Below, in pieces: positions 14,303-38,680 of a DNA stretch of 64,000 nt. The notes below the pieces were generated by a model. The model saw only the letters and a list, made by a program, of their open reading frames with translations, searched no databases and was not told the DNA's origin. The stretch's first letter is position 1. Each line of letters begins with the position of its first letter. The DNA is taken from contig CAVSWE010000003.1 of NCBI GenBank assembly GCA_963731595.1, forward strand, positions 236,948 through 300,947, given 5' to 3'. The stretch comes from an uncultured delta proteobacterium (GTDB lineage Bacteria > Myxococcota_A > Polyangia > Polyangiales > Polyangiaceae). The translations under genes and the position numbers were made by a program.

Positions 14303-14762
14303 TACTCGTATCGGTGACGCTGCCTAACGGCGCGAACCGTTGCGGAGTGGATGGCGCATCATCGGCTCGACCGCAGCATGGGGCGATAATAGCGCGAGTT
14401 GGCGCTGGAAGTAATGGGCCTCTCCCGATCGCCGAGCTGGAGTTCTGGGCTGCCGACTTGCCCTACTCACACCTGCCATCGAGCCTGTGTCGCCTCAAGA
14501 TTGTAGCTAGGTACGGATCGGAAAACGACGAACGTACAGAAGAGGAGACCTTATGAGGCGAAAATCCCTGGACGTCGACCTTCTCGCGGTATCCGGTCGA
14601 GCTTAACGATACCCTATAGACCCTCTTCCGATCGGCGGAGTAATTGCTACCGCGGTCTACAGTGCGTGAAGGCGTGCATGGACAAAACGCACCCACTCAT
14701 TTGAACGTGCGCGTGCGCCCCCTCCTTGGCGGCGCGCGGTAGTTCGTCTCGCTGTTCTTGCG

Positions 14763-15518
14763 TCAGGCGTGCTTTTTTTTGAAGGCGAACAGGAACAACG
14801 GTCGCTTCGCGGACCGATTACCCGCATGTATTCGCTGCAATCCATGCCGGCTTGCCCCTTCTTCCCATTCCTCAAGTGAGAAACGGTTGTTCGACAAGCC
14901 GAGGTAGGTCAAGTAACGCTGGACGCGGGGGATGGTGCATACCGCGCGCCGAACCCACGGGCTCCGCGTCATTCGCTTGGCCCAATCTTCACGTTTGCGC
15001 CGGCCATTTATGGGATTTGGGACATTGAAGATCAACACACCTCCGCCTCGCAGAACCCGCGCCAGTTCGCTAAAAACGAGCTCCAGATCCCCGACATATT
15101 CCATGACACTGGACGCGACCGCCGCGTCGAATGAGCAATCCCCAAATGGCAGTTGTCGCCAGTTGGCGGGAAGTGTCCTCCACTTAATGTCGGTATCGCC
15201 GAAGGCCTGGCGCCCTTTCATAATCATCTGGTCGGCCACATCGCAGGCCGTTAGCACATAGTGGTGCTCCCCGAGATGCTTGGCCAGATGGCCCGTACCA
15301 CAACCGAAGTCCAACACTTCAGCCGGCGGCGTCGCGAACCCGCCCAGCACAGAGCAAAACTGGTGCAGGCGCCATGTCAGCTTCCCATCCGGCCTGTAGT
15401 TCCTGCCCCAAACTTCTGCGCGATCGTTGAACAGGTCGCGCACCTGCTCAGATAAATCGCGAGGCCTATAGCTTGGTCGAATGGTCAGCTCGGGCGCTAG
15501 ACACGAGGATGGTTGCAA
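14763..15518 (-). CDS. Class I SAM-dependent methyltransferase (Methyltransf_11/23-like)
   Basis: Motif I EVLDFGCGTGHLAKHL; post-I acidic ACDVADQM; motif II/III region GGVLIFNVPN. Confidence 0.7.
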   Translation of the reverse strand: MQPSSCLAPELTIRPSYRPRDLSEQVRDLFNDRAEVWGRNYRPDGKLTWRLHQFCSVLGGFATPPAEVLDFGCGTGHLAKHLGEHHYVLTACDVADQMIMKGRQAFGDTDIKWRTLPANWRQLPFGDCSFDAAVASSVMEYVGDLELVFSELARVLRGGGVLIFNVPNPINGRRKREDWAKRMTRSPWVRRAVCTIPRVQRYLTYLGLSNNRFSLEEWEEGASRHGLQRIHAGNRSAKRPLFLFAFKKKHA

Positions 15519-16028
15519 GATGATCGGCCCTCTAATGGCTAAAGGCTACAAAATGAAGAAGAGAAGGCCAATAACGGCTAGTCCAAGCAGCGCGGTACGC
15601 GCTTCAGGACCTGGATTTCTCGATACGCTTCATAGCCGTTCGACGCCGTCACATAGCCTAAGCAAAAGATCCACTTATCTAGTTTTGGCCACCGGCTGAC
15701 CATCGTCTGTGTGTTACCGCACACATAGGGCATTGCATTTCTGCGCACCCGCCCGGATTCAAAACCCGGGACTCATGCCGACCGCGCGTGCTTCACGAGT
15801 ACGGAGTTACCCGGCGCGTCCGCTCGATTGGAGCACTGCGAACGACCGGTGTGGAGAAAGAAATTGGAGGGCCACGTTTGGCCGAGAGGCGACGGACGCG
15901 CTTGATCCTGATTCAACAAGCCTCATCAAGTGTTACGCATACGCGGCAACGCATTGTCCGCTGCTTCAGACAAGCATGGGCAGCGCGATTCAACGCAATA
16001 AGCCGCCCCGGTTCCGGGTCGAGAAAGG

Positions 16029-16295
16029 CTAGGACGCGTCTCTTTTCCCGGCGCCCGCACTGCTCTTCTTCGCGTCTTGCCTGCCAAGCTCCTCAGAGGT
16101 CAGCTTGACCCTTTTCACTTTTTCCGTCTTGATCTTTTCTTTCTTCACTTTTTCCTTCTTCACCTTTTCCTTCTTCACGACCGGACCCGCCAATGCCAGC
16201 TTCGCCAGCCGTTTGGCCTGCTTCGCTGCGACCTCGAGAAGTTTCCTGGTTTTTTGGTGCTGCCGTCTGGCTTTGAGCATTGACGAGTGACTCAT
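16029..16295 (-). CDS. Small lysine-rich basic protein with a tandem KKEKV repeat (histone H1/AlgP-like low complexity)
   Basis: ..GPVVKKEKVKKEKVKKEKIKTEKVKRVKLTSEE.. Confidence 0.5.
   Translation of the reverse strand: MSHSSMLKARRQHQKTRKLLEVAAKQAKRLAKLALAGPVVKKEKVKKEKVKKEKIKTEKVKRVKLTSEELGRQDAKKSSAGAGKRDAS
16111..16180. repeat. Tandem 15-nt repeat (ttcac[t/c]ttttccttc, about 3 units) encoding the KKEKV repeats
   Basis: Direct reading of 16111-16180. Confidence 0.7.
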
Positions 16296-17007
16296 TTTGA
16301 CCTCCGATGGGTGAAAGATTGAATTCGACTTTACGCCACGGCGGCGAGCGGCGCAATCTACGAAGTGAACGGCGACTCACGGCGCGTTGGCTCCGACAAA
16401 GATCGCGTCCGCAATCTTATTTTTGCCATACGCGAGGGATGGGCGGCACTCGACCGGCGCGGTGTCGCGGCCGCGCCAATAGGGCTTCGCGCAATATTTC
16501 AATGGGTCCCGCTCCCTTTTGCCGTGATGTACTGGCGGCATCTGCTAGGCTCGCCTCTTGGTGAATACTATTTCGCACGTCACGCCCGACATGCTGCTAG
16601 GGAAATGGGTGCGCTTGTGGCCGATGTGTGCGTCCTACTGCCGAACGACGGTATGCCGCACCTGCGACAGCTGTACGTAGCCGTCGAGCGCGCTGCTGAA
16701 TCATCGCCATGACCGGCCATCTACGGGGACACCTGAAAGTGCCCGACCTCTGCCGGAGCACCACTCTCATCGACTTTCGTCTTCGCCCTGTTGGCCGATC
16801 TCGGCGGGCCAAGCGAAAGTACGGTACCGCGCTCTGAATGGGCTCTAGGTTAATGAGAGAATTGAACTCTCTCGAGCGGCCGATGGGTTAGCACATTGGT
16901 TCGACCGCAAGTTCCGGGGAGCGCCGGAGATTCGTTACATGCTGCGCCGACCGCTTGCGCCTGAGCTGCCCTTCGCGCTAGACAGGCTCGGGCGTTCTAC
17001 GACCGCG

Positions 17008-18738
17008 CTAACCGGTCCGGCTCAGTGAGTTTTCGACGACAGAGTTCAATGCGCTACGCAGATGCGCGAAATCCGCCATCAACGCGAAATAGCGGTATTC
17101 GTCGCCGCCCTTCGCGCGGATCAGCGCGACCAGGCGGCGCTTGTCCGGTGCGGGCCATGCGCGAAGGTCTTTGATCTGAGCAAGGACCGGCGCAATGGCG
17201 CGCAATGCCCTGCGCTCGTCGTCGTTCCAGGCACCGGCATCCGCCAACCCCAGCGCCGCAGCCACGCGAGACAGCGCTGCCGCTTCCGCGCGATCGCGCC
17301 GACCACGGAACCGTGACGCTATCCACGTCGTCACTGCTTGACTCAGCGCCGCCGGATCGCACGCAGCGCGTGCGCCACAGACCACGGGCCGCTCGAGATC
17401 GGAGCGGGCGAAGCGCCGCAGGACGGACAACGGCGTGCGGTGCCCCGGGTTTCGCCTGATTTGTTCGAATTCCTCCAGCGCGACCGCGCGCAGCGCGGGC
17501 TTGACGGGTCGGAAGCCCAAGCGGAAATAGAACCAGAATGCGCCTGATTCGAGACCCTCACGGTTGCCGGCGCCGAATTGATAGGGTTCCACGACAAACC
17601 GCTCCACGGCGAACAGTTGGGCATACACCCGCAGGACGGAGGCCATCAGAAACGCGGACTCGCCGTTTCGAAACGGCGCAAAGATGTTGATGCCGATCTT
17701 GCAGGTGCCGAGGAACGGCCAACCGCCGCCATAGCCGATCGGGACGCCGTTCTTGTACAACACGTAGCCGATATGCGAATCGAGTGCGCCGCGTTGCGCA
17801 GGTATAGCCGAATACAGCGCAATATCGACACCGCGCCCAAGGCGGTAGTGGCGCGTCCGCGCAACGTCAGCGTGGGCGATCGGATCGGTCTCGCGACCGA
17901 GCATCGCCAGGGCGGCACGTCCGGCATCGACGAGATGCTGGCAGGCGTCACGCCCCAGGCGGCGTGCCCGCGGCAAGGCGGCCGCGATGAGCCGATCGGC
18001 ATCGACGCTGCGCAAGAGCGGACCGCGATGATGGAACGCTCGGGCAGGCAATCCGCGCGCGAATGTGCGGGAGATCGGCGCGTCGCGCGGGTTCAGCGAG
18101 ACGAACAGCTCAAGGCTGTCGTAGAGCGACTCGCGCAGCGCGGCATCACACGGCAGGCGCTCGAATTGCGCAACCAGCCATGCAAGGCGACTGGCGGGCC
18201 ATCCTGTCGTGCCGGCGTCGAGCAACGCCTCCGGTGAATCCTCGCCGGACGCCAGGAGCTCGAATTCGGCCGGAGGCAATCCATGGCGCAGCCATTGCGC
18301 GAGGAGCGCGCCGCGCTCACCGAACGAATCGATATCGACACATCTCGGAAATCGGGACACGAGCCAGCGGACGATTGGATAGCCGTATGCAATGGTGATT
18401 GCAGACCACGCGATACCGCTCCCACGGAGCGAGGCGCGTGCGCGCGCGGGTCCGTGCGCGTCGATGTCTCGCGCCACTGCAGCGACCCGCGTCAGTTCGC
18501 GTGCAGCGAGCGAACGCATTGCCTCCGTTGCCGGATACGCGAGAATGAATAGCAGCACATCGTGATAGGCGAGCAGTACCTCCGTATCGCCAAGAGCTCC
18601 ATCGGCCGCCGCGCGAAGTAGCGAGAGGCTGCGCGCACCGTCCGCGCCGCCGAAGCGGTTCGCCACCGTACGGAGCGCGATGACGGTCGCCGCCTCGAGT
18701 TGTCGGGGCGGCAAGTTCGCCATGTCGCTGCGCCCCAT
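17008..18738 (-). CDS. Hypothetical 576-aa protein, function unknown
   Basis: Long uninterrupted ORF with coding-like composition; conserved-looking core YKNGVPIGYGGGWPFLGTCKIGINIFAPFRNGESAFLMASVLRVYAQLFAVERFVVEPYQFGAGNREGLESGAFWFYFRLGFRP; no family assignable by eye. Confidence 0.5.
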   Translation of the reverse strand: MGRSDMANLPPRQLEAATVIALRTVANRFGGADGARSLSLLRAAADGALGDTEVLLAYHDVLLFILAYPATEAMRSLAARELTRVAAVARDIDAHGPARARASLRGSGIAWSAITIAYGYPIVRWLVSRFPRCVDIDSFGERGALLAQWLRHGLPPAEFELLASGEDSPEALLDAGTTGWPASRLAWLVAQFERLPCDAALRESLYDSLELFVSLNPRDAPISRTFARGLPARAFHHRGPLLRSVDADRLIAAALPRARRLGRDACQHLVDAGRAALAMLGRETDPIAHADVARTRHYRLGRGVDIALYSAIPAQRGALDSHIGYVLYKNGVPIGYGGGWPFLGTCKIGINIFAPFRNGESAFLMASVLRVYAQLFAVERFVVEPYQFGAGNREGLESGAFWFYFRLGFRPVKPALRAVALEEFEQIRRNPGHRTPLSVLRRFARSDLERPVVCGARAACDPAALSQAVTTWIASRFRGRRDRAEAAALSRVAAALGLADAGAWNDDERRALRAIAPVLAQIKDLRAWPAPDKRRLVALIRAKGGDEYRYFALMADFAHLRSALNSVVENSLSRTG

Positions 18739-19082
18739 GCCGTCAGTACCCGGAATCGAGCCGAATGATAATCATGTAGCCGGCCTCCTCGCCGCGGCTA
18801 AGCGGCAGGGTTAACGTCAATTTGCGAGATGGACTTTGACCCGAAGGAAACCGACGTGAAATATTGCGGCATAGACCTGCATTCGAATAATAGTGTGGTG
18901 ATCGTCAGCGAAGAGAAGGATTGGATCGTGCGAGTTTCTCCGTTCCACGGCGGACAGTTCACGTCAGTGCCGACCGGGAACTTCGGCTATCCCCGTCCTC
19001 TTGCGCACTCTCCATCGAGCTTCCGCGAATAGTAGCCAATGTACCTATTCTTACGCGTTCAATTTCTAACGACCATGCGGCG

Positions 19083-20272
19083 CTAACCAGGTTTACCGTC
19101 AAGCCGACCCCTAGACAATACCGGCCAATACCGTACGGCATATATCCCAAACGCCGCGGACCAACATAAACCGGATACGACCACCGTCGCCAGATAAGCA
19201 CCTGGAAGCAACATGCCGCCGAAGACGCGAATCATGGCAGCGAGTGCAACCAAAACAAAACAGGCAGTCTCGAAGCCGTCAGCGCTCAGCGGCCGCCCCG
19301 TATGGGCGCGTGCCGTTCGCGTCATCATGCCGATGGTCATGCCGCCTATCGCCCCCACCGTCAGCGCGTGAACAGCGAACAGTTGGCCCACCACTCCGAT
19401 CTCAGCCAGTCCACGCAATACAAGGTAGACAACAATCCAGCCGTAGGCGACGTGCAGCACCCACACCAGAGGCGCACTTCCAGTTCGCCATGGCTGCCAC
19501 AGGTAAAGTCGTACCGCGTGCGCGAGCGCAACCAGGAGTGCAAGCATTGCAACGACCAAGGTGGGAACCGGGAGAAGGTCGACGCCAAGCAATACGAGCA
19601 CACCGACTAGCGCGAATTTCTCGACCAACGGGTAACGCGTCGCTTGCGCACCTGGGATGCCGTTATTGGTGAACATGGGAATCACTCGCCCGCCGATGAC
19701 AGCCATGATAAACAGGATGACATCGAGCCCGGCCTGGAGGCTCGCCAGCTCTGTCCACGGAAGCAGGCCCAGATGTGAAAGGTGAAACGCAAGTACGGCG
19801 AAACCGAGCAATAGAAGCAACCCGAGGAAGAAATAGTTGCGCCGGTTCCGACTCTGTACCACAGCTTTTCCGATGCCAATGGCCAACGCCAAGGGAAACA
19901 CTACGTTGGCAATCGCGCCAGCGGTGGCATAAGGGGTCAGGACCAGCACACGGCCGGCCATCCAAAGCGCCGCCAGCGCGATCAGGGCAGGACCACTCGG
20001 AGTCGGCTTGCCGGTCCAGTTGGCGACAGCCGTCAGCAGGAATCCGGCCACGACCGCCATCGTGTAGCCGAACAGCATTTCATGGCCATGCCACGCGGGA
20101 CTTCGCAAGTATGTAGCGGGCAGCTGGCCGGCGTATTGACAGATCCAAAGCAGGATCGACGACGACGCGAAGATGCTGGCAAGTAGGTAGAACGGTCGAA
20201 AACCTAGATTCCAGAGTGCGAACCTTGTCGGGAACGATAGCCGCCTGAGGCCGCTGACCTTTGATTTTGATC
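19083..20272 (-). CDS. nnrS: NnrS-family heme-copper membrane protein (NO-stress associated), 2 frame interruptions at the N-terminus
   Basis: WHGHEMLFGYTMAVVAGFLLTAVANWTG ... GMTIGMMTRTARAHTGRPL; N-terminus LWNLGFRPFYLL recovered in a shifted frame. Confidence 0.75.
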
Positions 20273-20460
20273 ATCTGCAAGCTTGGTGGGGTACCGATGC
20301 TCCGTTCGCTGCCCGTTCGGAAACGAGCGCATTGCGCGCCTGAGGCAGAGCTATTGGTTCGGTGTGTTCACGCCTGTCTTTCGGCGAGATCCGGAGGTGG
20401 CCTGAAGAGGTTACCTGCGCGCTGCGCGTAAAATTATACGTCCGCCTGACGCGAGTTGGA

Positions 20461-21877
20461 CTACATCTCTCGTCGACCCTCAGGAATGCGAACGACGTGG
20501 ACGCTGCAGTGCGCGTTGGCCGTGACGCTCGAGGCAACCGAGCGCCACCAGGCAAGTGCGCGCTGCGATGCGCCCGGCGCGCCGAGCACGATCAAGTCGA
20601 CGTGATTCGCCGCCGCGAGCTCAAGCAGCGTGCTGGTGGCGTTGGCTCCCTCGACCACGTGCAAGGAGGTCCGCGCCGCGGAGATTCCCAACGGCTCCAT
20701 CCAATGCTTTAGGCGCGTTCTGTGCTCGAGGTGCCTTCCGGTCTCGGTATCGAGGTCGTTCGGGTCCTTCACCCACCGGCGCCGCCCTGACCACCGATAC
20801 GCACATGAGGCGCAATTCGGGATAGGGAGAGATGAGCTGCCGTGTCGCCATCTGCAGTGCCGGATTTCGCTCGTCGTCCGGATGCTCGGTGTCCACCGCC
20901 ACCATGATCACTGGGACGCGGTTGAGCGCAGATCGCCTCTGTCGGCGTGCGCTCTCGCGTCGCTGGGCGCGCCACCAGCGGCCGACTTGTGCGGCGATGC
21001 CGATGCCCTGGGTGCTCCCCGAACGGTCGCGGAGCGCGACCTGTTGCGGATGGCGAAAGTCGAAGGCGATGTGCGCGGCTGATTGGTAGCGCGCATCGGC
21101 ATCCGGTTCCAGGCAGCGCAGGATGATCTCCTGCAACCAGGGGGGCACCGCCGGGTTGACCGCCCGCGGGGGCGGCGGTACCCGCCACAGTCGGTCGCGC
21201 ATCCCGGTATAGGTCTGCGGGTCGCCGAACGGCTGCTCTCCGGTGGCCAGTTCGTAGAGCAGCACGCCGAGGGCGAAAAGATCGCTGCGCTCGTCGCTGC
21301 GGTTGCCTCGCAGTTGTTCCGGCGAGACATAGGCCGAGGAACCGGCCGCAAACTGCATCTCTTCGGCGAGCAGGTCAGGATAGCGCGCATGGCGTGCGAA
21401 GCCGAAGTCGAGCAGCACCGCGTCGCCGTGGGGCCGCAGCATGAAATTCTCCGGCTTAAGGTCGAAATGGATGACTTGCTGCAGATGCACGCTGTGCACG
21501 GCGTCGGCGAGCGCCGCGCTGATGCGCGCGACCTCTTCGGGTGCTAAGGGTGCCCTGGCCGCGTACTCCGCCACGCTCGTGCCCTCGATCCACTCCATCA
21601 CCACGTAGGGCATGGCCCGGATATCGCCGGCGGCGACGAAGCGCGGCACGTGCGGACCGGTGAGCCGGGCAAGCACGGTTTGCTCCATCTCCAGGCTGAT
21701 GATGCCGATCGCGGACTCTCCAGGCCCGAGATAAGGCACCTTGAACACCAGCGGAAAGCCAGGCTCCCCGTCCACTGGTCCCGTGGCGCGATAGATGGCC
21801 CCCGTTCCGCCCTGGTGGATGCATTCGCCCAGACGGTACCCGTCGATGACGCTGCCCGGATGCAAGGGTTCGCGCAT
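20461..21877 (-). CDS. Hanks-type Ser/Thr protein kinase fused to a C-terminal universal stress protein (UspA) domain; frame change inside the Usp domain
   Basis: Kinase: GTGAIYRA, VIHFDLKPENFML, LLDFGFA, SAYVSPEQ. Usp: VIMVAVDTEHPDDERNPALQMA..LRLMCVSVV, then in a shifted frame NHVDLIVLGAPGAS..AHCSVHVVR. Confidence 0.75.
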
Positions 21878-21911
21878 GGTTCGAGAGCGGCCGTCCGCAA
21901 GGCGTGCGAAC

Positions 21912-22679
21912 CTAGATGCCCAGCTCCACGCGATAGGCCAGCGACGCAGGCAGGCCACAGGCGCGAATCTTGGCCGCAGCGGCCGCCGCATCGTACGGGA
22001 CGCGGAAAAAGGTAACCTCCTGTCGGTCAAGATCAAACAACGTGTAGGCGGCGGCTGGATTGCGGTCGCGCGGCTGACCCACGGAGCCCACGATCCCCAC
22101 CCAGCGGCGATGACTGCGCGCCGGGATCGCGGTCCCGGGGAAGGGACGGAATTCGCTCATTCGGCCCTGCGCGCTCTCGAAATACAGGACCTGGTCATGG
22201 ACGTGACCGCAGAAGGTGTAGCAGGCGTCTGTCGCGTCGGCGCAGCGCTTGGCGGCCGCGGGACTGTCGATGTAGTCCCAGCGCTCCGGCGCCGCCGCCG
22301 AGGCGTGGACGTAGCACACCGTCCCCTCCCGCGCGAAGAGCGGCAGCGCGGCGAGGAAGCGCTTCTGCTCCTCGGTAAGCGTATCACGTGCCCACTGCAG
22401 CGACGCCTGGGAGGCGTCGTTGAAGTAGCCCGAGCTCCTGTCGATGGCTTGGTCGTGGTTGCCTTTGAGAACGACCGCCCCCTGCGCAGCGTAGCGGCAG
22501 ACCGTCTCGACGACAGCGCGCGCATCGGCGCCGTAGCCCACGAAATCGCCAAGAAAGGCGAATCGCTCCGCACCTCGACTCCGAGCGTGGTGTAAACACG
22601 CGTTGAGAGCCTCCAGGTTGCCGTGAATGTCGGATAACAATGCGGTTAGCAACGGACACGCCCTAGTGGGTGACACCAC
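21912..22679 (-). CDS. Metallophosphoesterase, PPP-family Ser/Thr phosphatase-like
   Basis: LLSDIHGNLEAL, FLGDFVGYGADA, LKGNHDQ. Confidence 0.7.
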   Translation of the reverse strand: MVSPTRACPLLTALLSDIHGNLEALNACLHHARSRGAERFAFLGDFVGYGADARAVVETVCRYAAQGAVVLKGNHDQAIDRSSGYFNDASQASLQWARDTLTEEQKRFLAALPLFAREGTVCYVHASAAAPERWDYIDSPAAAKRCADATDACYTFCGHVHDQVLYFESAQGRMSEFRPFPGTAIPARSHRRWVGIVGSVGQPRDRNPAAAYTLFDLDRQEVTFFRVPYDAAAAAAKIRACGLPASLAYRVELGI

Positions 22680-22981
22680 GCAGTTTCAATGTTAGCAGGG
22701 ATGGGCCGCGGTTCCGTACGACTGGGTTGTCACCGGCTGACAGGAAAAGGCCGCGCGATCGGAAGGCGCTTACTGCAATGCGAGTCTGCGGGCTGCGGCG
22801 CGCTGTGAACACCGGCAAATCCGTAACCTTGAGGTAGCTCTGCTAGCCGATGGAAATGGCCTCGCGAGGGTCAAATTCGGAAGCAGATCGTGTCTCAGAA
22901 AGCGGGCGTCGAGGCGAGGCCAACTGATTATAGGCCGATCCATGAGGGCTGGGCGCGTGCGGCGTCAAGAAAGCACAGAAC

Positions 22982-23430
22982 TCAAAAGGGAGGCGGCTTA
23001 GCGCTTCTTTTGAAGGATTTTCGTCGAAATTCTTCAGCGGTGAACTCCTCCATTTCCGGGTCCATTGCGCCACGGGACGAAACGATTCCTATTGGTTTGC
23101 CATGTTGAACGACGGGCAGATAACGAAGGCCTTTTTCGTACATTACCAATAGTGCGTAGCCAAATGGCTCATCCGGACCAACAGTGTACGGCGCGCACGT
23201 CATCACGTCGGCAACCCGTGTGGCCCGCGCGTCAAGCCCTTGTGCAACCACGCGAAAACCACGTCGCGTTCGGTAAAAATTCCGACAAGACTGATCGCCT
23301 TCAACTACCATGATTGCGCCTGCCTCTCTTGGCTGCCATTAACCTGGCGGCCTCACTGACGAGGGTCTCCGGCGTAGCCTTGAGCGCTTCGCGCGGCCGC
23401 ATGACGTTTCGGACCGGCTCATCGAACATG
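22982..23430 (-). CDS. CBS-pair domain protein, 1 frame change
   Basis: CBS1 MFDEPVRNVMRPREALKATPETLVSEAARLMAAKR.. (frame A) joins ..VVEGDQ..RVVAQGLDARATRVADVMTCAPYTVGPDEPFGYALLVMYEKGLRYLPVVQHGKPIGIVSSRGAM (frame B). Confidence 0.6.
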
Positions 23431-23698
23431 AAACTCCTTTGAAGGAGTCCGGAGCCATGGACGCAACCCGCAAGTGTAAACTCTTGACCCTCGGTCCTTC
23501 TTCAACGAAACTACTCCAACCGCTATTTCGGAAAGTTGATTTGGATCAATTCCGAGTGGCGATCCACGACAGGACTGCACTACTCGCCACCGAGATACCT
23601 CGCTCGTTCGCACGCATCGGACACATTGAGCTGCGTTGCCATGGACGCTGTCCAAAGCAAGGGAGGATCTTCTTGCCGCGTTGATCTAATCCTTCAAA

Positions 23699-24250
23699 AT
23701 GCAATCCCTCCGCATTATTCAAGATGAACATCGCTCGCTGGCGGCTGTCCTCCACGGCATGCTTTACCTCGTTCACGAGATCCGTGACAGGGGAGCCAAG
23801 CCGGACTTCGGCCTTCTGGGAGCGATGATCTATTACATTGACACGGTTCCCGAGCGATTCCATCACCCCAAGGAGGAGCAGTACCTGTTCTGGCCTATTG
23901 CGCGAACGTCACCCCAGTACTGCGCCGCTCCTTGATCGGCTCAAACTCGAACACCAGACCAGCGCAGAGAAGATCCGAACCCTCGAACAAGCGATGGTGC
24001 ATTATCAGCAAGGCGGTGCGCCGGAATTCCCGGCCTTCCTGACGGCAGTGGAGTCCTATGCGACGTTCCATTGGTCGCATATGAAGACCGAGGAAAATGA
24101 GGTCTTGCCGCTTGCAGAAAAGCATCTCACCGCGAGTGATTGGGATGCGATCGATGCGGCCTTTCTCGGTCACACCGATCCTCTGTTAGGCATCGACGCG
24201 GGTGCGAAATACGATGCGCTGTTCAGCTCGCATCGTCAATTTGGCACCGC
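23699..24250 (+). CDS. Hemerythrin-like (HHE cation-binding) domain protein, 1 frame change
   Basis: IQDEHRSLAAVLHGMLYLV..VPERFHHPKEEQYLF | ..ERHPSTAPLLDRLKLEH..FHWSHMKTEENEVLPLAEKHLTASDWDAIDAAFLGHTDPL. Confidence 0.6.
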
Positions 24251-24486
24251 CACCCATCGGTGTGGGACCCGTGTGCTAAGCAGAATGGCGCTTACAGCGC
24301 CTGCTCCGCAAAGCCCCCTTCGCTCCCCTTTTTTGCAACGTGCATTTTGAGGGATATTCGACCCGAGTCACGCGTGCCGGTCGTAGGCAAGCCGGCATGA
24401 GCAGGCCCTGCGACATTTTGCCGCACGTAACCCGCGCTCGCGCTGCGGGGATAGCCTGTTGTTGGGTATAAACTGGGTTGTAGCAA

Positions 24487-25272
24487 TTGACCATGGAGTC
24501 GTGCATGTCGATATCTGCCATACGCCAAACGGCGTCGGCTCCGTCATCATCCAATACCATTGCGTTTTGCGAGCTCAAGACGCATTGCGCCTGCTGTAGC
24601 CTGCGCAGGTTGTGTTTGCCGGTCGGCCTTGAGGCGGACGCTGTACGGCAGCTGGATCAGCTTGCCTTCAAGCGGAACCGGGTAAAAAAGGGCGAAAGCC
24701 TGTACCGGCATGGCGATCCATTCGCCGCGCTGTATGCGATTCGACTAGGGACCTTCAAGACGATGGTGCTCACGGAGGATGGTCGCGAACAAATTACGGG
24801 TTACCATATGGCGGGCGAAATCGTGGGGCTCGATGGTATTAGCAATGACAGATATGCATGTCAGACAACCGCGCTCGAGGACGGTGAAGTGTGCGTTCTT
24901 CCCTTCGATCAGCTCGACGAACTGGCCAACAACCTAACTGCTTTACGACGCAATCTGTACCGCATCATCGCACACGATCTCTGCAGTGGCCAAGATATGA
25001 TGCTGTTGTTGGGCAGCATGCGAGCCGAAGAGCGGCTGGCGGTCTTCTTGCTCAACCTCGCCAAGCGTTATGAGGTGCTCGGCTACTCATCCTGCGAATT
25101 CGTACTGCGTATGACGCGTGAAGAGACTGCCAGTTATCTCGGGCTGAAACTGGAGACCGTCAGCCGCCTGTTCTCGCGCCTACAGCAAGAAGGATTGATC
25201 CAAGTGCAGGGCCGCGCGGTCAAGCTGATTGACTTGCCGGCGCTAAAGCGGTTGGTCGGTCACCACGGCTGA
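24487..25272 (+). CDS. fnr: FNR-type (Crp/Fnr family) O2-sensing transcription regulator with an N-terminal Cys cluster
   Basis: CELKTHCACCSLRRLC plus the internal Cys in EDGEVCVLPF align to E. coli FNR C20/C23/C29/C122; the cNMP-like fold and C-terminal HTH ETASYLGLKLETVSRLFSRL align along the full length to E. coli FNR. Confidence 0.8.
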   Translation: MTMESCMSISAIRQTASAPSSSNTIAFCELKTHCACCSLRRLCLPVGLEADAVRQLDQLAFKRNRVKKGESLYRHGDPFAALYAIRLGTFKTMVLTEDGREQITGYHMAGEIVGLDGISNDRYACQTTALEDGEVCVLPFDQLDELANNLTALRRNLYRIIAHDLCSGQDMMLLLGSMRAEERLAVFLLNLAKRYEVLGYSSCEFVLRMTREETASYLGLKLETVSRLFSRLQQEGLIQVQGRAVKLIDLPALKRLVGHHG

Positions 25273-25559
25273 CCTAGCGCGGCCACAACACTGGATAATC
25301 AGGATGGTTGCCTCTGGCGTTGATCGTTCAGTCGCGCAGAGGCCGTCGGGCGAGTTGGCTTCACGCCGCAAACTGGACCGCGGATAATGGCAGCGGCGAC
25401 TCGCCGACGGCCACCCGCGATGGCTTAAGCGGACCTGTTTGACCTGCGCAAATGGCTCGCTCAGCGCGCTGTCTCATGTTGGCGCGCCGGAAACGAGTGC
25501 CTTTCAGGTCAGCGTAGTATGCGGTTTACACTGCGGATGTTGCGCCGAAAGGGGGAACA

Positions 25560-26135
25560 GTGGCACAGGAACGCGGTAGACCCAGCCTATGGCGACGGCT
25601 TTCCACACCGAGCGCAAGATGGTCCGTCTTAGCGCTAGTGGTCGTAGGTTTGTTAATTGGTGCGGGCGCTGTGATCGGAACGCAGGTCATGGTAGCCGCA
25701 ACTGGCACCAACGAGTTTTGCGGCGGAGCCTGTCATTCGATGCAATGGGTCGCCCAGGAGTACAAGCAAAGTGTGCATTACGCCAACCGCACCGGCGTCC
25801 GGGCTGGCTGCCACGACTGCCACATCCCAGACCATTATCCCGACCTCCTTTGGTACAAGACCAAAGCCGGCGTGCACGACGCCATCGAAGAAATGCGCGG
25901 CGTTATTTCAAGCGAGGAAAAGTTCAAGAAAGAGCGTTTGCGCCTGGCCCAGGTGGTATGGGCGGAATTCAAAGATAACAATTCAGAGAATTGTCAGCAT
26001 TGCCACAAGTTTAGCCCGGAGGTCGTGGCCAAGCAGAAGGACTTCGTGCAACCGATGCATCAACAATTCCTGGCGAAGGCAGCGACCTGCATCGATTGCC
26101 ATAAGGGCGTTGCCCATACGGCACCCGACGAATGA
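25560..26135 (+). CDS. NapC/NirT/CymA-family membrane-anchored tetraheme quinol dehydrogenase
   Basis: N-terminal TM segment, then CGGACH, CHDCH, CQHCH, CIDCH. Confidence 0.8.
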   Translation: MAQERGRPSLWRRLSTPSARWSVLALVVVGLLIGAGAVIGTQVMVAATGTNEFCGGACHSMQWVAQEYKQSVHYANRTGVRAGCHDCHIPDHYPDLLWYKTKAGVHDAIEEMRGVISSEEKFKKERLRLAQVVWAEFKDNNSENCQHCHKFSPEVVAKQKDFVQPMHQQFLAKAATCIDCHKGVAHTAPDE

Positions 26136-26142
26136 GAAGGGT

Positions 26143-26703
26143 TCAGCCCTTGACCGGACGCTTGGCCAGCTTGCGCTGAAGCGTACGGCGATGCATCGAC
26201 AGCGCTCGCGCGGCCTGTGAAATGTTGCCCTTTTGCTCACGCAGCACGCGCCAGATGTGCTCCCACTCCAGGCGCCTGATCGACATCGGTTTCTCTTTCG
26301 GCGTCACCTCGACGTTGCCGACATCGTGGTAAAACGCCGCAATGATATCGTCTGCGTCCACCGGCTTGCAGAGGTAGTACGTTGCGCCTAGCTTGATTGC
26401 CTCTATCGCCGTCGCAATGTTCCCATAGCCGGTGAGGACCACAATCCGCGTATGGGGGTCGAGGCCGATCAAGGTTGATACCAGCTTAAGTCCGGGTTTA
26501 TCCGGAAGCCTCAAATCGACGACGGCGTACTCGGGTGGGTTCTCGGTCGCCAGCTTGGTTGCTGCAGCCGCTGTAACGGCGGTCGCGACCTCGAATCCGC
26601 GCTTCGCAATGGCTCGTCCCAGTGTTTCGCAAAGCGTCGCATCGTCGTCCACTAATAGGAGGCTGGGTTTGTCGTCGCCGTCGTAGGTGCTGCGGGCCGT
26701 CAT
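26143..26703 (-). CDS. regA: RegA/PrrA/ActR-type redox response regulator (receiver plus Fis-type HTH)
   Basis: LLLVDDD..AVVDLRLPDKPGL..VVLTGYGNIATAIEAIKLGATYYLCKP..ISQAARALSMHRRTLQRKL. Confidence 0.75.
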   Translation of the reverse strand: MTARSTYDGDDKPSLLLVDDDATLCETLGRAIAKRGFEVATAVTAAAATKLATENPPEYAVVDLRLPDKPGLKLVSTLIGLDPHTRIVVLTGYGNIATAIEAIKLGATYYLCKPVDADDIIAAFYHDVGNVEVTPKEKPMSIRRLEWEHIWRVLREQKGNISQAARALSMHRRTLQRKLAKRPVKG

Positions 26704-28163
26704 CGATGTCCCTCGAGGCTTAGCGAAGCCAATGGCAGCATGATTTTGACTTGCGTCCCGCCCGCGGGCCGGTTCTCCCAGCTCAGCGTTCCGCCGAGCC
26801 GTTCGATGGCACGCGAGGCGAGAACAACGCCAAGTCCCGTACCCGTGCCCGGTGGCTTGGTGGTAAAGAACGCCCGCCCTAGTTTGGGCTGATCAACGGC
26901 AGGCAGGCCACTGCCGCGGTCAGCAATGGAAAGTCGCAATGAATTCGCCTCCAGGCAAGCGGTGAATTGGACCTCTCGCGGCGAAGCGTCGGTAGCATTG
27001 TTTAGTAATGCCAACAACGCCTGCATCAGCGCCTGATCCGCAAAAACCTCCGTAGCTGGCAGTACGCCGTCCCAATCACAAACGATGTTCGCCTCTGGGT
27101 GCATTGTCCGGCATCGGACGGCGATTGACTCGAGAAATTGGTCCAGGCGCTCACGTCCGCCGCCTATCGCACGCGTATGACCGGCAGCCGCCATCAGATC
27201 CGTAATCGTTTCGCGGCAGATCTGGATCTGTGAAGTCAGTATGCCGGCGTCGCGCTGTAAAGACGGCGAGTCCGCGTTGCGCACGATCTCCCCGGCGACA
27301 ACCGCCATGGTAGTGAGCGGCGTTGCAAGCTCGTGCGCGGCACCGGCCGCAAGTGCGCCGACCCGAAGCACCGCTTCGTCGCGTAGCGCTCTCTGCGCCG
27401 CTTCGCTCAGCAGCCGATCATGACTGCGAAGTGTCGCGACAATGCGCACGACGAACCATGCGATGACAGCAGCGGTCAACGTGAAACTTAGCCACCACCC
27501 GAAAGTGAGGAGATACGCCGGAACGGCTTCGCCTGACCGCATCTCGAGCGGGACGCGGATGCGAGTGAGCGCCACATAGCACCCGACGACGAGCACGGTC
27601 CCGGTCGCCGCAGCCAGGGGCGGAAGAAGCAGGGACATCAGCACAACATGCAGAACGAACAGAAGGCTAAACGGGTTGGTTGCACCGCCCGAAAGGAACA
27701 GCAACAAAGTGAGCGCCGCAAGATCGAATCCTAGATAGGCCGCAATTTCGGCGTGGCTTGCTTCACGTGGCCTACGCAGACGCATCCAAGTCCAGACGTT
27801 TAGGACGATCAGAGCGCCGACGACAAGACCCATCACTGCCACAGGCAACGATACGCCCAGATACCAGGCGGTGGTGATCGCCGCCGCCTGCCCACCAAGG
27901 GCTATCGTACGCAGAATCATTAGCTGTCGTACGTTGGCCCGGAGCGGCGGCGGTGCTACCGCGATAGACAGGTTGGGGGGCCTCTCGGGTTGGGCTGGGC
28001 GAGCGTGGACGACTGAAGGCGCACCATTGATCGATATCGGACTGGCTGGCTCCGGTTCTTGTACGTTTACGGTGAGGTGAGCATTCATGAGATTTTGAAC
28101 ACCGGATCGTGGTCCGCCCGTGAAGGTCGAAGCGACGAGCAATCCGGTTTGCGCCCGCGACAA
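26700..28163 (-). CDS. regB: RegB/PrrB/ActS-type membrane sensor histidine kinase
   Basis: Multiple TM helices with the conserved GGATNPF heptapeptide; H-box AAGAAHELATPL; ATPase G-boxes; overlaps regA by 4 nt. Confidence 0.75.
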   Translation of the reverse strand: MSRAQTGLLVASTFTGGPRSGVQNLMNAHLTVNVQEPEPASPISINGAPSVVHARPAQPERPPNLSIAVAPPPLRANVRQLMILRTIALGGQAAAITTAWYLGVSLPVAVMGLVVGALIVLNVWTWMRLRRPREASHAEIAAYLGFDLAALTLLLFLSGGATNPFSLLFVLHVVLMSLLLPPLAAATGTVLVVGCYVALTRIRVPLEMRSGEAVPAYLLTFGWWLSFTLTAAVIAWFVVRIVATLRSHDRLLSEAAQRALRDEAVLRVGALAAGAAHELATPLTTMAVVAGEIVRNADSPSLQRDAGILTSQIQICRETITDLMAAAGHTRAIGGGRERLDQFLESIAVRCRTMHPEANIVCDWDGVLPATEVFADQALMQALLALLNNATDASPREVQFTACLEANSLRLSIADRGSGLPAVDQPKLGRAFFTTKPPGTGTGLGVVLASRAIERLGGTLSWENRPAGGTQVKIMLPLASLSLEGHR

Positions 28164-28479
28164 AATGTCGCAGTTAGAAACGGCGCACAGGGGATTTGCA
28201 GCGCGTGATATTAATCTTAATCAACCTCGAGCTATAAGACCTACTATACGCTAGACCTTGTGCAGGCCGTCCAGACGCCATCGAGGACCTGTTAAAGGAA
28301 TGCCGCCGCAACGGCAGGCGGCTGTTCATAGGTGAAGAGTTCGATGAGCCCCGCCAGGATAATCCGATCGGCGACTTGAGAGCCGCGGACGTACTGCTAC
28401 GACAAGATTGTTGCCTCGATTGGCAGGGAGAGGCGGGCTTGCACCGGCCTCTCCCCACACAAAGTGGCAACCCGATGCT

Positions 28480-28764
28480 TTATTGCGACAGCACCCACTT
28501 AACCAGGGTTTTCACATCATCGGGTGTGGCTTTGACTTGGGGATGTCCCTTGCCGCCGCTGATCTCGGCCACCAGCTTCGCCTCGGCATCGGCCTTGCCC
28601 TTGTACTTGGCGGCGACGTCCTTGAATGCCGGGCCGATTTTCTTGCTGTCTATCGCGTGGCAATTCAGACAGCCGCTGCTCTTGGCGAGTTCTTCCTGCG
28701 CGCTCGCCGCGCCTGCCGCGCCCAGCGCGATCGATACTACTACTGCGATCCCAATCAGTTTCAT
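28480..28764 (-). CDS. Monoheme class-I cytochrome c (c551/c552-like) with signal peptide
   Basis: MKLIGIAVVVSIALGAAGAASA | ..CLNCHAIDSKKIGPAFKDVAAKY.. Confidence 0.75.
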   Translation of the reverse strand: MKLIGIAVVVSIALGAAGAASAQEELAKSSGCLNCHAIDSKKIGPAFKDVAAKYKGKADAEAKLVAEISGGKGHPQVKATPDDVKTLVKWVLSQ

Positions 28765-28879
28765 ATAACCTCCTTCACCTCGACGGGAATTGGATGATAA
28801 CGTGTACTGCTGGCTCCTGCCGCAAGTTTCCGGCGGCAGGGGTTTATCCTAGCGGACGCATGACCCTGGGAAAATCATC

Positions 28880-29365: not shown

Positions 29366-29495
29366 CCGCTTCCGGACCTTGTTCTTACCAGCCCATCGCG
29401 CTTGGCGCGGGCCGCTTTACTTAGGCTGTGAGAAATCCACCTGATCTGCCACCGCATGCACTGAAGCCTTGTCGATGATTCGCCCACCAACCGGG

Positions 29496-38671: not shown

Positions 38672-38680
38672 GTCGTCTCC

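What the first reader, a model, noticed from the sequence alone, without database searches (positions are those of the whole stretch)
19083..25272. NO/anoxia signalling neighbourhood: NnrS, kinase-Usp fusion plus PPP phosphatase, CBS-pair, hemerythrin-like protein, FNR
The genes are clustered and mostly co-oriented. NnrS is a heme-copper NO-stress protein usually in Dnr/NnrR regulons. A Hanks kinase is fused to a Usp domain; this fusion is common in plants and uncommon in proteobacteria. A PPP-family phosphatase ends 35 nt upstream of the kinase start. A CBS-pair protein and a hemerythrin HHE protein (O2/NO/iron sensing) follow, then an FNR with all four cluster cysteines. Together these suggest a phospho-signalling module wired to low-oxygen or nitrosative stress, adjacent to the electron-conduit region.
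Basis: partly seen in the sequence, partly recalled or inferred. Interest (0 to 1): 0.55.

Follow-up and report, generated by a model that had tools for sequence, protein, structure and literature searches.

The report
Stress kinase pair beside oxygen regulator
The six genes are real, but the only conserved unit is an uncharacterised pair, a phosphoesterase plus a protein kinase fused to a stress-protein domain; in this bacterial lineage the pair usually sits among low-oxygen genes, and the nitric-oxide link and shared regulation are not established.

Summary
All six genes are present. Five are broken by single-base indels in this error-prone assembly; a 96%-identical contig carries the four it shares intact, and a 92%-identical contig carries intact nnrS.

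The conserved core is a two-gene cassette: a calcineurin-like metallophosphoesterase (MPE), not a true PPP enzyme, directly upstream of a soluble Hanks kinase with a C-terminal Usp domain. It occurs in 74 of 77 informative loci and in Alphaproteobacteria. RefSeq already names it; I found no experimental work.

- **Kinase:** all catalytic residues are present, in a non-RD catalytic loop.
- **Usp:** the ATP motif is degenerate, G-x2-G-x9-R-S.
- **Neighbours:** FNR, hemerythrin, HemN, fumarate reductase or CcoI lie within 8 kb in nearly all loci of the window's clade (≥64% identity) and in almost none of the distant clade.
- **NnrS and the CBS protein:** these are strain-level additions.
- **FNR box:** a perfect box (23536-23549) sits between the CBS and hemerythrin genes, with class II geometry towards CBS.
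- **Promoter:** the cassette has its own conserved −10 element and no box at it, so FNR control of the kinase is unproven.

Verdict: an ordinary but uncharacterised signalling cassette in a low-oxygen genomic setting. Interest is low to moderate.

The parts
19083..20274 (-). nnrS (NnrS family membrane protein). The true start is the ATG at 20274. One extra base near 20229 splits the ORF in this assembly.
   Evidence: Pfam NnrS 324.7 bits. Alignment to the intact 396-aa homologue P0124, which begins MIKIEVQRPQAAS..., and to L085 locates the indel. Intact P0124 scores 362.9 bits over the whole profile.
20461..21877 (-). Soluble Hanks-type Ser/Thr kinase (about residues 10-280), a basic linker, and a C-terminal Usp domain (about residues 322-465). 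One extra base at 20762 splits the Usp domain in this assembly.
   Evidence: Pfam. 99% identical to the intact 471-aa P0001. Indel mapped and the corrected ORF shown. Invariant catalytic residues. The AlphaFold model gives a kinase fold plus a five-strand, four-helix Usp fold.
21912..22679 (-). Calcineurin-like metallophosphoesterase of the 3RQZ / Metallophos_2 type. The likely real start is the TTG at 22652 (246 aa). The ORF is intact.
   Evidence: Pfam PF12850 44.6 bits and PF00149 42.6 bits. PDB 3RQZ E 2.6e-32 over the full length. Directly upstream of the kinase in 74 of 77 loci, median gap 14 nt.
22689..22697 (-). Extended −10-like element TGcTAACAT, about 40 nt upstream of the phosphoesterase TTG start. 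It is the probable own promoter of the phosphoesterase-kinase operon.
   Evidence: A −10-like hexamer lies at −65..−25 in 50 of 76 orthologous loci, against 1-6 of 76 in control windows. The motif CCTGCTAnnAT is shared by relatives at 73-96% identity.
22982..23429 (-). Stand-alone CBS-pair protein (148 aa). Three single-base indels in this assembly, at 23255, 23292 and 23326.
   Evidence: Pfam CBS, two repeats, 79.4 bits on the intact L001 copy. Indels and corrected ORF. PDB relatives 4FRY and Rv2626c/Hrp1.
23536..23549 (.). Perfect FNR/Anr-type palindrome TTGATTTGGATCAA in the divergent CBS/hemerythrin intergenic region.
   Evidence: it is the window's only perfect match; counting sites with up to one mismatch there are 4, against 0.96 expected. 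Conserved in L001, L085 and L003.
23508..23513 (-). −10-like hexamer TAGTTT, 22 nt downstream of the FNR box on the CBS strand. This puts the box at about −41.5, the class II geometry.
   Evidence: Read. No transcription start data are available.
23699..24279 (+). Hemerythrin-like HHE four-helix-bundle protein (192 aa). Two extra bases in this assembly, at 23892 and 24227.
   Evidence: Pfam 53.4 bits on the intact copy. Indels and corrected ORF. AlphaFold pLDDT 87, four long helices. Nearest folds are the HHE proteins 3CAX and 2P0N. An FNR box lies upstream in 10 of 14 orthologues.
24505..25272 (+). fnr: an oxygen-sensing Crp/Fnr regulator (255 aa) with cysteines C28, C31, C37 and C130 and the LETVSR recognition helix. 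The ORF is intact.
   Evidence: NCBIfam Fnr 244.9 bits against cutoff 228. Pfam. Sequence.

Best explanation
The region combines one conserved signalling cassette with lineage-variable low-oxygen genes.

**The cassette.** It is a two-gene operon. The first gene encodes a calcineurin-like metallophosphoesterase (MPE). The second encodes a soluble, non-RD Hanks-type Ser/Thr kinase whose C-terminal Usp domain is the likely regulatory or dimerising, nucleotide-binding module. The operon is transcribed from its own extended −10 promoter.
- Inferred: the kinase phosphorylates unknown cytoplasmic targets.
- Inferred: the co-expressed MPE reverses this, as the cognate phosphatase.

**The setting.** In the window's clade of Casimicrobiaceae-like Burkholderiales, the cassette has settled among genes of the FNR low-oxygen regulon. 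FNR carries an oxygen-labile [4Fe-4S] cluster. It most likely activates the divergent promoter pair at 23430-23698, driving the hemerythrin-like gene one way and the CBS-pair gene the other way.
- Inferred: read-through from the CBS promoter may raise cassette expression under anoxia.

**The rest.** nnrS downstream is a strain-level addition and not part of the module.
For: **The pair as a unit.**
- The MPE lies directly upstream on the same strand in 74 of 77 loci, with a median gap of 14 nt. MPE and kinase identities co-vary (Spearman 0.92).
- The same pair is found in Pseudoroseomonas and Rhodobacter replicons, with gaps of 1-4 nt.

**Kinase competence.** These residues are invariant in 20 homologues: the glycine loop GGTG, K46, E63/E65, H137-x-D139-x-K141-x-x-N144, D157-F-G and S185-P-E. 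The position before D139 is never Arg.

**Usp domain.** Pfam 46 bits, and a canonical fold in the model.

**MPE.** The metal ligands DxH, GD, GNHD, H and GHxH are present.

**Own promoter.**

**Low-oxygen neighbourhood.**, with the families identified.

**FNR box and regulator.**
- The box is perfect and conserved, and a TAGTTT hexamer lies 22 nt downstream towards CBS.
- 10 of 14 hemerythrin orthologues carry a box.
- FNR is itself a bona fide Fnr subfamily member.
- No convincing terminator lies between CBS and the MPE.
Against: - No biochemical or expression data exist for any member. Four literature searches aimed at the fusion found only a 2005 in-silico mention.
- The cassette's own promoter has no FNR box at −41.5. 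Boxes upstream of the MPE in relatives sit 15-40 nt from the conserved −10, which is not canonical geometry.
- In L003 the CBS gene is deleted and the CBS-side −10 has decayed (TGGTGT), so the shared box may serve only the hemerythrin gene there.
- The distant clade has no low-oxygen neighbours at all.
- The MPE's nearest characterised relative, SapH, is as I recall a nucleotide / Ap4A hydrolase, not a protein phosphatase.
- The Usp nucleotide motif has Arg in place of the last Gly.
Confidence: 0.55

Rival explanations
1. **Nucleotide-gated kinase.** The metallophosphoesterase is not a protein phosphatase. It hydrolyses a nucleotide or dinucleoside polyphosphate (Ap4A-, ATP- or cyclic-nucleotide-like) that is the ligand of the Usp domain. 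The pair would then form a small-molecule-gated kinase switch, with the MPE resetting the signal.
For: - The best solved relatives of the MPE are uncharacterised MPEs plus SapH and YfcE. PP1 matches only the N-terminal motifs, at E 0.1-0.3.
- The best NCBIfam match is ApaH, although it falls far below the cutoff.
- The PPP-defining GDxVDRG arginine is absent (GDFVGYG).
- Usp domains are known nucleotide binders: ATP for MJ0577, cAMP for Rv1636 and c-di-AMP for KdpD (papers listed).
- The family-invariant WWRS in the phosphate-binding loop suggests an altered ligand.
Against: - No ligand or substrate has been tested.
- Hanks kinases usually travel with a cognate protein phosphatase, and some ApaH-like PPP enzymes do both jobs (my recollection of the PP1-cyano enzymes).
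- The tight 1-40 nt coupling fits either model.
Confidence: 0.25
2. **Coincidental neighbourhood.** The cassette is a general-purpose signalling pair with its own constitutive promoter, and its proximity to FNR-regulon genes in one clade is inherited synteny without a functional link.
For: - The cassette has its own conserved −10 element and no FNR box at canonical distance from it.
- The distant clade and the alphaproteobacterial copies have unrelated neighbours.
- The loci of the close clade are phylogenetically non-independent.
- nnrS and CBS come and go between near-identical strains.
Against: - Within the close clade the low-oxygen genes vary in identity, order and orientation (FNR at −4.7 to +6.3 kb, HemN convergent downstream, Frd or CcoI upstream), yet some such gene is almost always present. 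This looks like maintained association rather than frozen synteny.
- FNR boxes with at most one mismatch are 4.5-fold enriched upstream of the MPE: 8 observed against 1.76 expected, Poisson P about 5e-4.
Confidence: 0.3
3. **Decaying pseudogene cluster.** The frameshifts are real mutations, so the module is non-functional in this organism.
For: - Five of six ORFs are frameshifted in the window.
- The database protein P0121, a near-identical (one substitution) 331-aa product on a 1.35-Mb public contig, shows the same truncated nnrS call, so at least that frameshift is present in a public assembly.
Against: - All the lesions are ±1-nt indels and none is a nonsense mutation.
- They occur in coding and non-coding DNA alike, 10 in 5 kb compared with L001.
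- The corrected kinase is 99% identical to an intact homologue.
- The nearest relatives come from long-read, Flye-style metagenome assemblies that show the same kind of fragmented genes elsewhere, for example narG in L001.
Confidence: 0.05
4. **Anti-phage kinase.** The kinase is a defence kinase of the PD-T4-6 type.
For: The kinase domain matches PADLOC PD-T4-6 models, with E down to 1e-55.
Against: - Those models are generic Hanks-kinase profiles and cover only residues 10-280.
- The MPE, CBS and hemerythrin proteins have no PADLOC match.
- The family is unusually conserved, 64-99% identity across many species.
- It sits among respiration genes, not in defence islands.
Confidence: 0.03

Closest known systems
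RefSeq/PGAP family 'bifunctional serine/threonine-protein kinase/universal stress protein' with its adjacent 'metallophosphoesterase family protein' (for example Rhodobacter sp. CZR27 WP_096787577.1 / WP_096787578.1 and Pseudoroseomonas cervicalis WP_271138123.1 / WP_271138124.1)
   Same: Same architecture (N-terminal kinase, C-terminal Usp, about 470 aa). The same upstream MPE partner with a 1-4 nt gap. 41-44% identity over 97-99% of the length.
   Different: The alphaproteobacterial copies lie among unrelated genes (sulfate transport, acs, nos). The window's clade lies among FNR-regulon genes. No member has been characterised experimentally, as far as my searches reach.
PknB/StkP-type Hanks kinases with a cognate PP2C phosphatase (Mycobacterium PknB-PstP, Streptococcus StkP-PhpP)
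   Same: The kinase domain is homologous (StkP E 1.9e-33, PknB E about 2e-29). Kinase and antagonist are encoded side by side.
   Different: - No transmembrane segment and no PASTA sensor.
- The catalytic loop is non-RD (H-F/L-D).
- The regulatory domain is a cytoplasmic Usp.
- The partner is a calcineurin-like MPE, not a PP2C enzyme.
Plant Usp-kinase proteins (Arabidopsis; Kerk et al. 2003, as cited in PMC1262709)
   Same: A Usp domain fused to a Ser/Thr kinase domain.
   Different: The domain order is reversed: Usp is N-terminal in plants, often with a U-box. This points to an independent fusion event.
Bacterial STKs with a USPA domain noted in silico by Krupa & Srinivasan 2005 (Mesorhizobium loti, Bradyrhizobium japonicum, Nitrosomonas europaea; PMC1262709)
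   Same: The same kind of fusion, in Proteobacteria. The authors proposed stress induction.
   Different: That paper gave no genomic context, partner phosphatase or regulation. I did not test whether those proteins are orthologous to this family.
Hypoxia regulons rich in Usp, CBS and hemerythrin proteins: M. tuberculosis DosR (Rv2623 and other Usps, CBS-pair Hrp1/Rv2626c), P. aeruginosa Anr-dependent Usps, the B. cenocepacia lxa locus (PMC3721108) and the M. xanthus NmpR oxygen regulon (PMC11841059)
   Same: The same set of small nucleotide-binding and di-iron domains is gathered next to an oxygen-responsive regulator. The lxa motif TGA-N6-TCA is FNR/Anr-like. The CBS protein here matches Rv2626c at E 1.9e-8.
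   Different: Those regulons carry stand-alone Usp proteins. Here the Usp domain is fused to a Hanks kinase and paired with an MPE, and the cassette appears to have its own promoter.
PDB 3RQZ metallophosphoesterase, with SapH (3QFM) and YfcE (1SU1)
   Same: Full-length homology to 3RQZ (E 2.6e-32), and all the metal-binding motifs are shared.
   Different: 3RQZ carries only the molecule name 'Metallophosphoesterase' and I know of no assigned function. SapH and YfcE act on nucleotides or phosphodiesters (my recollection), so protein phosphatase activity cannot be assumed.

Membership tests
Hanks-type (eukaryotic-like) Ser/Thr protein kinase | Pkinase domain above the Pfam gathering score | tested here: met
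   112.1-112.8 bits against a cutoff of 31.7. StkP and PknB are the top solved structures.
Hanks-type (eukaryotic-like) Ser/Thr protein kinase | Catalytic residues: glycine loop, β3 Lys, αC Glu, HxDxKxxN catalytic loop, DFG, (A/S)PE | tested here: met
   GGTG, K46, E63/E65, H137/D139/K141/N144, D157-F-G and S185-P-E are invariant in 20 homologues and present in the corrected window ORF. The catalytic loop is non-RD (HFD / HLD).
Hanks-type (eukaryotic-like) Ser/Thr protein kinase | Autophosphorylation or substrate phosphorylation | not testable with these tools
   Needs an in vitro kinase assay.
Universal stress protein, ATP-binding (MJ0577-type) class | Usp domain (PF00582) with an α/β fold | tested here: met
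   46.1 bits against a cutoff of 24, covering profile positions 5-141. The AlphaFold model shows five strands and four helices at residues 323-464, with pLDDT about 55-76.
Universal stress protein, ATP-binding (MJ0577-type) class | G-2x-G-9x-G(S/T) nucleotide-binding motif | tested here: not met
   The motif reads G-A-P-G-x9-R-S. The Arg is invariant across the family. Alignment to ATP-binding TeaD puts the Arg opposite the last Gly. Nucleotide binding is therefore uncertain.
RefSeq 'bifunctional serine/threonine-protein kinase/universal stress protein' | Kinase-then-Usp architecture of about 470 aa, with homology to annotated members | tested here: met
   tblastn hits to four annotated replicons, 41-44% identity over 94-99% of the length. 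NCBI gives the same name to Casimicrobiaceae homologues at 72-76% identity.
PPP-family Ser/Thr phosphatase | Signature motifs GDxHG / GDxVDRG / GNH[ED] | tested here: not met
   The sequence reads SDIHG / GDFVGYG / GNHD. The phosphate-binding D-R of motif 2 is absent, and a GHVH motif typical of non-PPP MPEs is present.
PPP-family Ser/Thr phosphatase | Significant similarity to PPP or ApaH profiles or structures | tested here: not met
   PP1 chains score E 0.1-0.3 over residues 6-81 only. ApaH NCBIfam scores 28.2 bits against a cutoff of 176.
Calcineurin-like metallophosphoesterase superfamily (Metallophos_2 / 3RQZ-like) | Pfam domain above cutoff and full-length homology to a solved member | tested here: met
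   PF12850 44.6 bits against 27, and PF00149 42.6 bits against 21.5. 3RQZ E 2.6e-32 over residues 4-246.
FNR (oxygen-sensing [4Fe-4S] Crp/Fnr regulator) | Fnr subfamily model above cutoff, four cluster cysteines, E--SR DNA-recognition motif | tested here: met
   244.9 bits against a cutoff of 228. C28, C31, C37 and C130 align to E. coli C20, C23, C29 and C122. LETVSR is present.
Class II FNR-dependent promoter | TTGAT-N4-ATCAA palindrome centred near −41.5 of a transcription start | tested here: inconclusive
   A perfect palindrome lies at 23536-23549 and is conserved in three relatives. A TAGTTT hexamer 22 nt downstream on the CBS strand fits −41.5. No transcription start data exist. No such box sits at the cassette's own −10 element.
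NnrS | PF05940 domain over the full length | tested here: met
   324.7 bits on the truncated window ORF. The intact 93%-identical homologue P0124 covers profile positions 1-371. Haem and copper binding are not testable here.
Hemerythrin-like HHE domain protein | PF01814 domain, four-helix bundle, conserved His/Glu ligands | tested here: met
   53.4 bits against a cutoff of 25.3. The model has pLDDT 87 and four long helices. H11, H55, H56, E59, H85, H127 and E131 are invariant in 22 homologues. The nearest folds are the HHE proteins 3CAX and 2P0N, a weak match at E 0.02-0.15.
CBS-pair (Bateman) protein | Two tandem CBS repeats | tested here: met
   Two stretches, 79.4 bits, on the intact L001 copy. 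In the window the first repeat is disrupted by indels.

The most novel reading that the evidence does not exclude
The metallophosphoesterase / kinase-Usp cassette is a dedicated energy- or oxygen-limitation switch of Burkholderiales. In it a non-RD Hanks kinase is gated by a nucleotide bound to its atypical Usp domain (GAPG-x9-RS), and the partner MPE destroys that nucleotide rather than dephosphorylating protein. This would be a small-molecule-reset Ser/Thr kinase circuit recruited into the FNR regulon, a wiring not described for bacterial Hanks kinases.
Probability: 0.12. Interest if true: 0.6.

Novelty: new member of a known kind. Interest (0 to 1): 0.3.

Why it matters
Bacterial Hanks kinases are mostly understood from membrane-bound PknB-like sensors paired with PP2C phosphatases. 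This is a compact, soluble alternative: a kinase fused to a Usp domain and paired with a calcineurin-like phosphoesterase. It is highly conserved in soil and wastewater Burkholderiales and present in Alphaproteobacteria, and I found no experimental study of it.

Its repeated placement among FNR-regulon genes in one clade gives a concrete and cheap hypothesis to test: a role in adaptation to oxygen limitation. It also offers a handle on what Usp domains actually do.

In practice, the analysis also shows that the window's many broken ORFs are assembly errors. It further shows that the apparent NO link (nnrS) is a strain-level accident of gene order.

Tried and rejected
1. **FNR box at 20261-20274 as the nnrS promoter.** Rejected. 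The intact homologue shows that this sequence is the nnrS start codon plus codons 2-5 (ATGATCAAAATCAA = MIKI.).
2. **NnrS as part of the module.** Rejected. It occurs next to the kinase only in the window and in L085/L086, and L001 has nar genes there instead.
3. **PPP phosphatase.** Rejected on motifs and on profile and structure scores.
4. **FNR directly activating the cassette promoter.** Not supported. Boxes in relatives lie 15-40 nt from the conserved −10 element rather than at a fixed −41.5.
5. **RNA element or repeat in the 300-nt CBS-MPE spacer.**
   - No Rfam hit in 16000-29000.
   - No repeat in the window or the loci.
   - Folding energy is no better than that of shuffled sequences, z = +1.56.
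6. **Terminator scan.** It found nothing above the shuffled expectation.
7. **Defence system.** Only generic kinase-profile hits.
8. **Literature.** Four searches aimed at the fusion found no experimental study of a bacterial kinase-Usp fusion; one query was malformed and one returned nothing.
9. **Source contig.** An exact-match look-up of the window's truncated NnrS product failed.
10. **Neighbour clustering.** Single-linkage clustering of neighbour ORFs merged the kinase, the MPE and shadow ORFs into one large cluster. Counts for those two genes therefore rest on tblastn instead.
11. **The 576-aa ORF at 17008-18738.** It has no match in Pfam, NCBIfam, PADLOC or PDB sequences.

Full report
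**1. What is in the sequence**

- NnrS, 19083-20108, minus strand.
- A protein kinase domain followed by Usp.
- A calcineurin-like metallophosphoesterase, 21912-22679, minus strand.
- A CBS protein.
- A hemerythrin HHE protein.
- A Crp/Fnr regulator, 24487-25272, plus strand.

Five of the six genes are split between reading frames. Window positions 20452-31878 align at 96% identity to a 75-kb metagenome contig, L001, in which the kinase-Usp, CBS and hemerythrin genes are intact. The differences inside the finding are ten single-base indels.

Removing or adding one base at 20762, at 23255/23292/23326 and at 23892/24227 restores a 471-aa kinase-Usp, a 148-aa CBS pair and a 192-aa hemerythrin-like protein. 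The same is true for nnrS at about 20229, judged against the short-read contig L085. The intact homologue P0124 shows that nnrS starts at the ATG at 20274.

A database protein that matches the window's truncated NnrS product except for one substitution lies on a 1.35-Mb public contig. At least that frameshift is therefore present in a public assembly. The nearest relatives are long-read metagenome bins labelled 'uncultured beta proteobacterium' or Casimicrobiaceae. I read the frameshifts as assembly errors, not pseudogenes.

**2. The individual proteins**

*Kinase.* The corrected kinase is 99% identical to the intact protein P0001. Across 20 homologues at 63-92% identity to P0001, the glycine loop, β3 Lys46, the αC Glu, H137-x-D139-x-K141-x-x-N144, D157-F-G and S185-P-E are all invariant. 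Catalysis should therefore be intact. The residue before the catalytic Asp is Phe, Leu or His and never Arg, which makes this a non-RD kinase. There is no membrane segment or extracellular sensor. The best solved relatives are the StkP and PknB kinase domains.

*Usp domain.* It matches the whole Pfam Usp profile (46 bits). In the AlphaFold model it folds as five strands and four helices, although confidence is moderate (mean pLDDT 68; the linker at 286-321 is disordered). Its nucleotide-binding signature reads G-A-P-G-x9-R-S instead of G-x2-G-x9-G-S/T. The Arg is invariant in the family and aligns to the last Gly of ATP-binding TeaD. ATP binding is therefore neither excluded nor assured.

*Phosphatase.* It has all the metal ligands of the calcineurin-like superfamily but not the PPP-defining GDxVDRG motif. 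Its closest solved relative is the uncharacterised metallophosphoesterase 3RQZ (E 2.6e-32), followed by 1NNW, 2GJU, SapH and YfcE. PP1 and ApaH appear only at E 0.1-0.3 or far below the curated cutoffs. It should be called a metallophosphoesterase (MPE) of unknown substrate.

*FNR.* It passes the curated Fnr model. It carries the four cluster cysteines (C28, C31, C37, C130) and the E--SR recognition helix.

*Hemerythrin-like protein.* It models confidently as a four-helix bundle (pLDDT 87) with invariant His/Glu ligands. Its nearest folds are two HHE proteins of unknown function, and the match is weak. It has no close solved homologue by sequence.

*CBS pair.* It resembles 4FRY and the mycobacterial hypoxic response protein Rv2626c.

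**3. What is conserved**

A scan of one genome per species returned 118 relatives of the kinase-Usp. I examined 80 loci.
- The MPE lies directly upstream on the same strand in 74 of the 77 loci that have enough upstream sequence. The median gap is 14 nt.
- The identities of the two proteins co-vary (Spearman 0.92).
- The same pair, 1-4 nt apart, is annotated in Pseudoroseomonas and Rhodobacter replicons as 'metallophosphoesterase family protein' plus 'bifunctional serine/threonine-protein kinase/universal stress protein'.

This two-gene cassette is the real unit.

Nothing else is conserved across the family. tblastn finds FNR near the kinase in about 16 loci and the hemerythrin in about 13. 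It finds only partial NnrS matches in two loci, and the CBS protein in one locus plus a weak hit.

An unbiased clustering of neighbouring ORFs, annotated with Pfam, gave these recurrent neighbours:
- FNR in 15 loci.
- The hemerythrin in 12.
- The oxygen-independent coproporphyrinogen oxidase HemN in 12-16.
- Fumarate reductase in about 10.
- A CcoI/FixI-type ATPase in 8.
- Two-component systems.

These neighbours are sharply partitioned. In the window's own clade (kinase at least 64% identical) nearly every locus has at least one low-oxygen gene within 8 kb. In the distant clade (53-62% identity) almost none does; many of those loci instead have an 886-aa histidine kinase and an OmpR-type regulator upstream.

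Within the close clade the identity, order and orientation of the low-oxygen genes differ from locus to locus. This argues for maintained association rather than simple inherited synteny, although the loci are not phylogenetically independent.

**4. The NnrS and CBS genes**

Synteny between the window and L001 ends exactly at the kinase stop codon. L001 continues with narXL, narK and narGH where the window has nnrS. The order hemerythrin | CBS, MPE, kinase-Usp, nnrS | fnr-like does recur in two short-read metagenome contigs, L085 and L086, which are about 91% identical in DNA. The adjacency is therefore real and not a mis-assembly, but it is confined to this narrow group.

The CBS gene is absent from the 92%-identical relative L003. 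There the hemerythrin-side intergenic region runs straight into the MPE leader.

**5. Regulation**

The window has four near-consensus FNR boxes with at most one mismatch, against 0.96 expected.
- The only perfect one, TTGATTTGGATCAA at 23536-23549, lies between the divergent CBS and hemerythrin genes. It is conserved in L001, L085 and L003. On the CBS strand it is followed after 22 nt by TAGTTT, the spacing of a class II FNR promoter.
- Ten of 14 hemerythrin orthologues have a box within 220 nt upstream. The hemerythrin is a good candidate FNR target.
- The box at 20261-20274 is the nnrS start codon and its first codons, not a promoter element.

For the cassette itself the picture is weaker. 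Boxes with at most one mismatch are enriched upstream of the MPE across loci (8 observed against 1.76 expected, P about 5e-4). However, the cassette has its own conserved −10-like element. It is present at −65..−25 in 50 of 76 loci, against 1-6 of 76 in control windows. In the window it is TGcTAACAT at 22697-22689. The FNR boxes in relatives lie at variable, non-canonical distances from it. The window has no box there at all.

No convincing terminator separates CBS from the MPE, so anoxic read-through is possible. It is an inference only. In L003 the CBS-side −10 has decayed.

**6. Most likely mechanism, and rivals**

*Shown.* There is a conserved MPE-kinase/Usp operon with intact catalytic motifs. 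A bona fide fnr gene and a perfect FNR site lie next to it. There is a clade-specific association with low-oxygen genes.

*Inferred.* The kinase phosphorylates cytoplasmic targets. The Usp domain regulates or dimerises it, perhaps through a nucleotide. The MPE antagonises it. In this lineage FNR raises the CBS and hemerythrin genes, and possibly the cassette, when oxygen falls.

*Rivals.*
- The main mechanistic rival is that the MPE hydrolyses a nucleotide ligand of the Usp domain rather than phosphoprotein. Its closest characterised relatives favour this.
- The main biological rival is that the neighbourhood has no regulatory meaning for the kinase.
- Pseudogenisation and an anti-phage role are unlikely.

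**7. Comparison with what is known, and novelty**

Kinase-Usp fusions in Proteobacteria were noted in silico in 2005 (PMC1262709), and RefSeq names the family. I found no experimental study.

Plant Usp-kinases have the opposite domain order. Hypoxia regulons that collect Usp, CBS and hemerythrin proteins are well known: the B. cenocepacia lxa locus (PMC3721108), the M. xanthus NmpR regulon (PMC11841059), and, from my own knowledge, M. tuberculosis DosR and P. aeruginosa Anr.

The window therefore holds a new member of a known but uncharacterised family, in a setting that suggests a testable role in low-oxygen adaptation. A representative search with the Usp C-terminal half found only 56 clusters at E ≤ 1e-10, about ten of them full-length. 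The family is small and compact.

Interest is low to moderate.

Noticed in passing
window 20452-31878 (and probably the whole window): The assembly carries many ±1-nt indels relative to a 96%-identical contig: 66 gap openings in 11.4 kb, ten of them inside the finding. Overlapping same-strand ORF fragments elsewhere (for example 38681-41589) suggest the same problem throughout the window.
   Followed up: partly
window 20452 (synteny breakpoint): Immediately after the kinase-Usp stop codon, near-identical strains carry different cargo: nnrS in the window and L085, but narXL-narK-narGH in L001. L085 also has about 600 nt more between the kinase and nnrS. No tRNA gene was found in 12000-30000, and I did not look for flanking repeats.
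   Followed up: partly
window 22747-22982: A spacer of about 240 nt between the CBS and phosphoesterase genes is present only in the window and L001 and is absent from L085. It is not repeated, has no Rfam match and shows no unusual folding energy.
   Followed up: yes
window 17008-18738 (minus strand): An intact 576-aa ORF next to nnrS has no match in Pfam, NCBIfam, PADLOC or PDB sequences. It is absent from all 80 related loci.
   Followed up: partly
window 16029-16295 (minus strand): An 88-aa lysine-rich ORF with KKEKV-type repeats, resembling a histone H1-like or nucleoid protein. It has no Pfam match.
   Followed up: no
window 42296-42309 and 28211-28224: Two further FNR-like boxes, each with one mismatch. 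One lies in the divergent region upstream of nuoA (NADH dehydrogenase I operon). The other lies between a small c-type cytochrome gene and the regB-like histidine kinase gene.
   Followed up: partly
L029-L082 (distant clade of the cassette): In relatives at 53-62% identity the cassette is preceded, in about 17 loci, by an 886-aa histidine kinase plus an OmpR-type response regulator, instead of low-oxygen genes. The N-terminal 680 residues of that kinase have no Pfam match.
   Followed up: partly
L002/L003 11950-15917: In the 92%-identical relative, the kinase-Usp is followed by a ribosome hibernation factor (S30AE), an APH/AAA_33 kinase-like protein, a BON-domain fragment, a GNAT acetyltransferase and a PHB depolymerase-like hydrolase. 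This is a dormancy-flavoured set.
   Followed up: no
It holds a NapC/NirT-type tetrahaem cytochrome, RegB/RegA-like two-component genes, a cNMP-binding protein without an HTH domain (28880-29365), a multihaem cytochrome (32089-33291) and, in L001, an MtrB/PioB porin.
   Followed up: partly
window 34698-41589: Lactate utilisation genes (LutB-like protein, lactate permease, CCG-domain and FAD-linked oxidase subunits) lie between the cytochrome region and the nuo operon. Several of them appear frameshifted.
   Followed up: no
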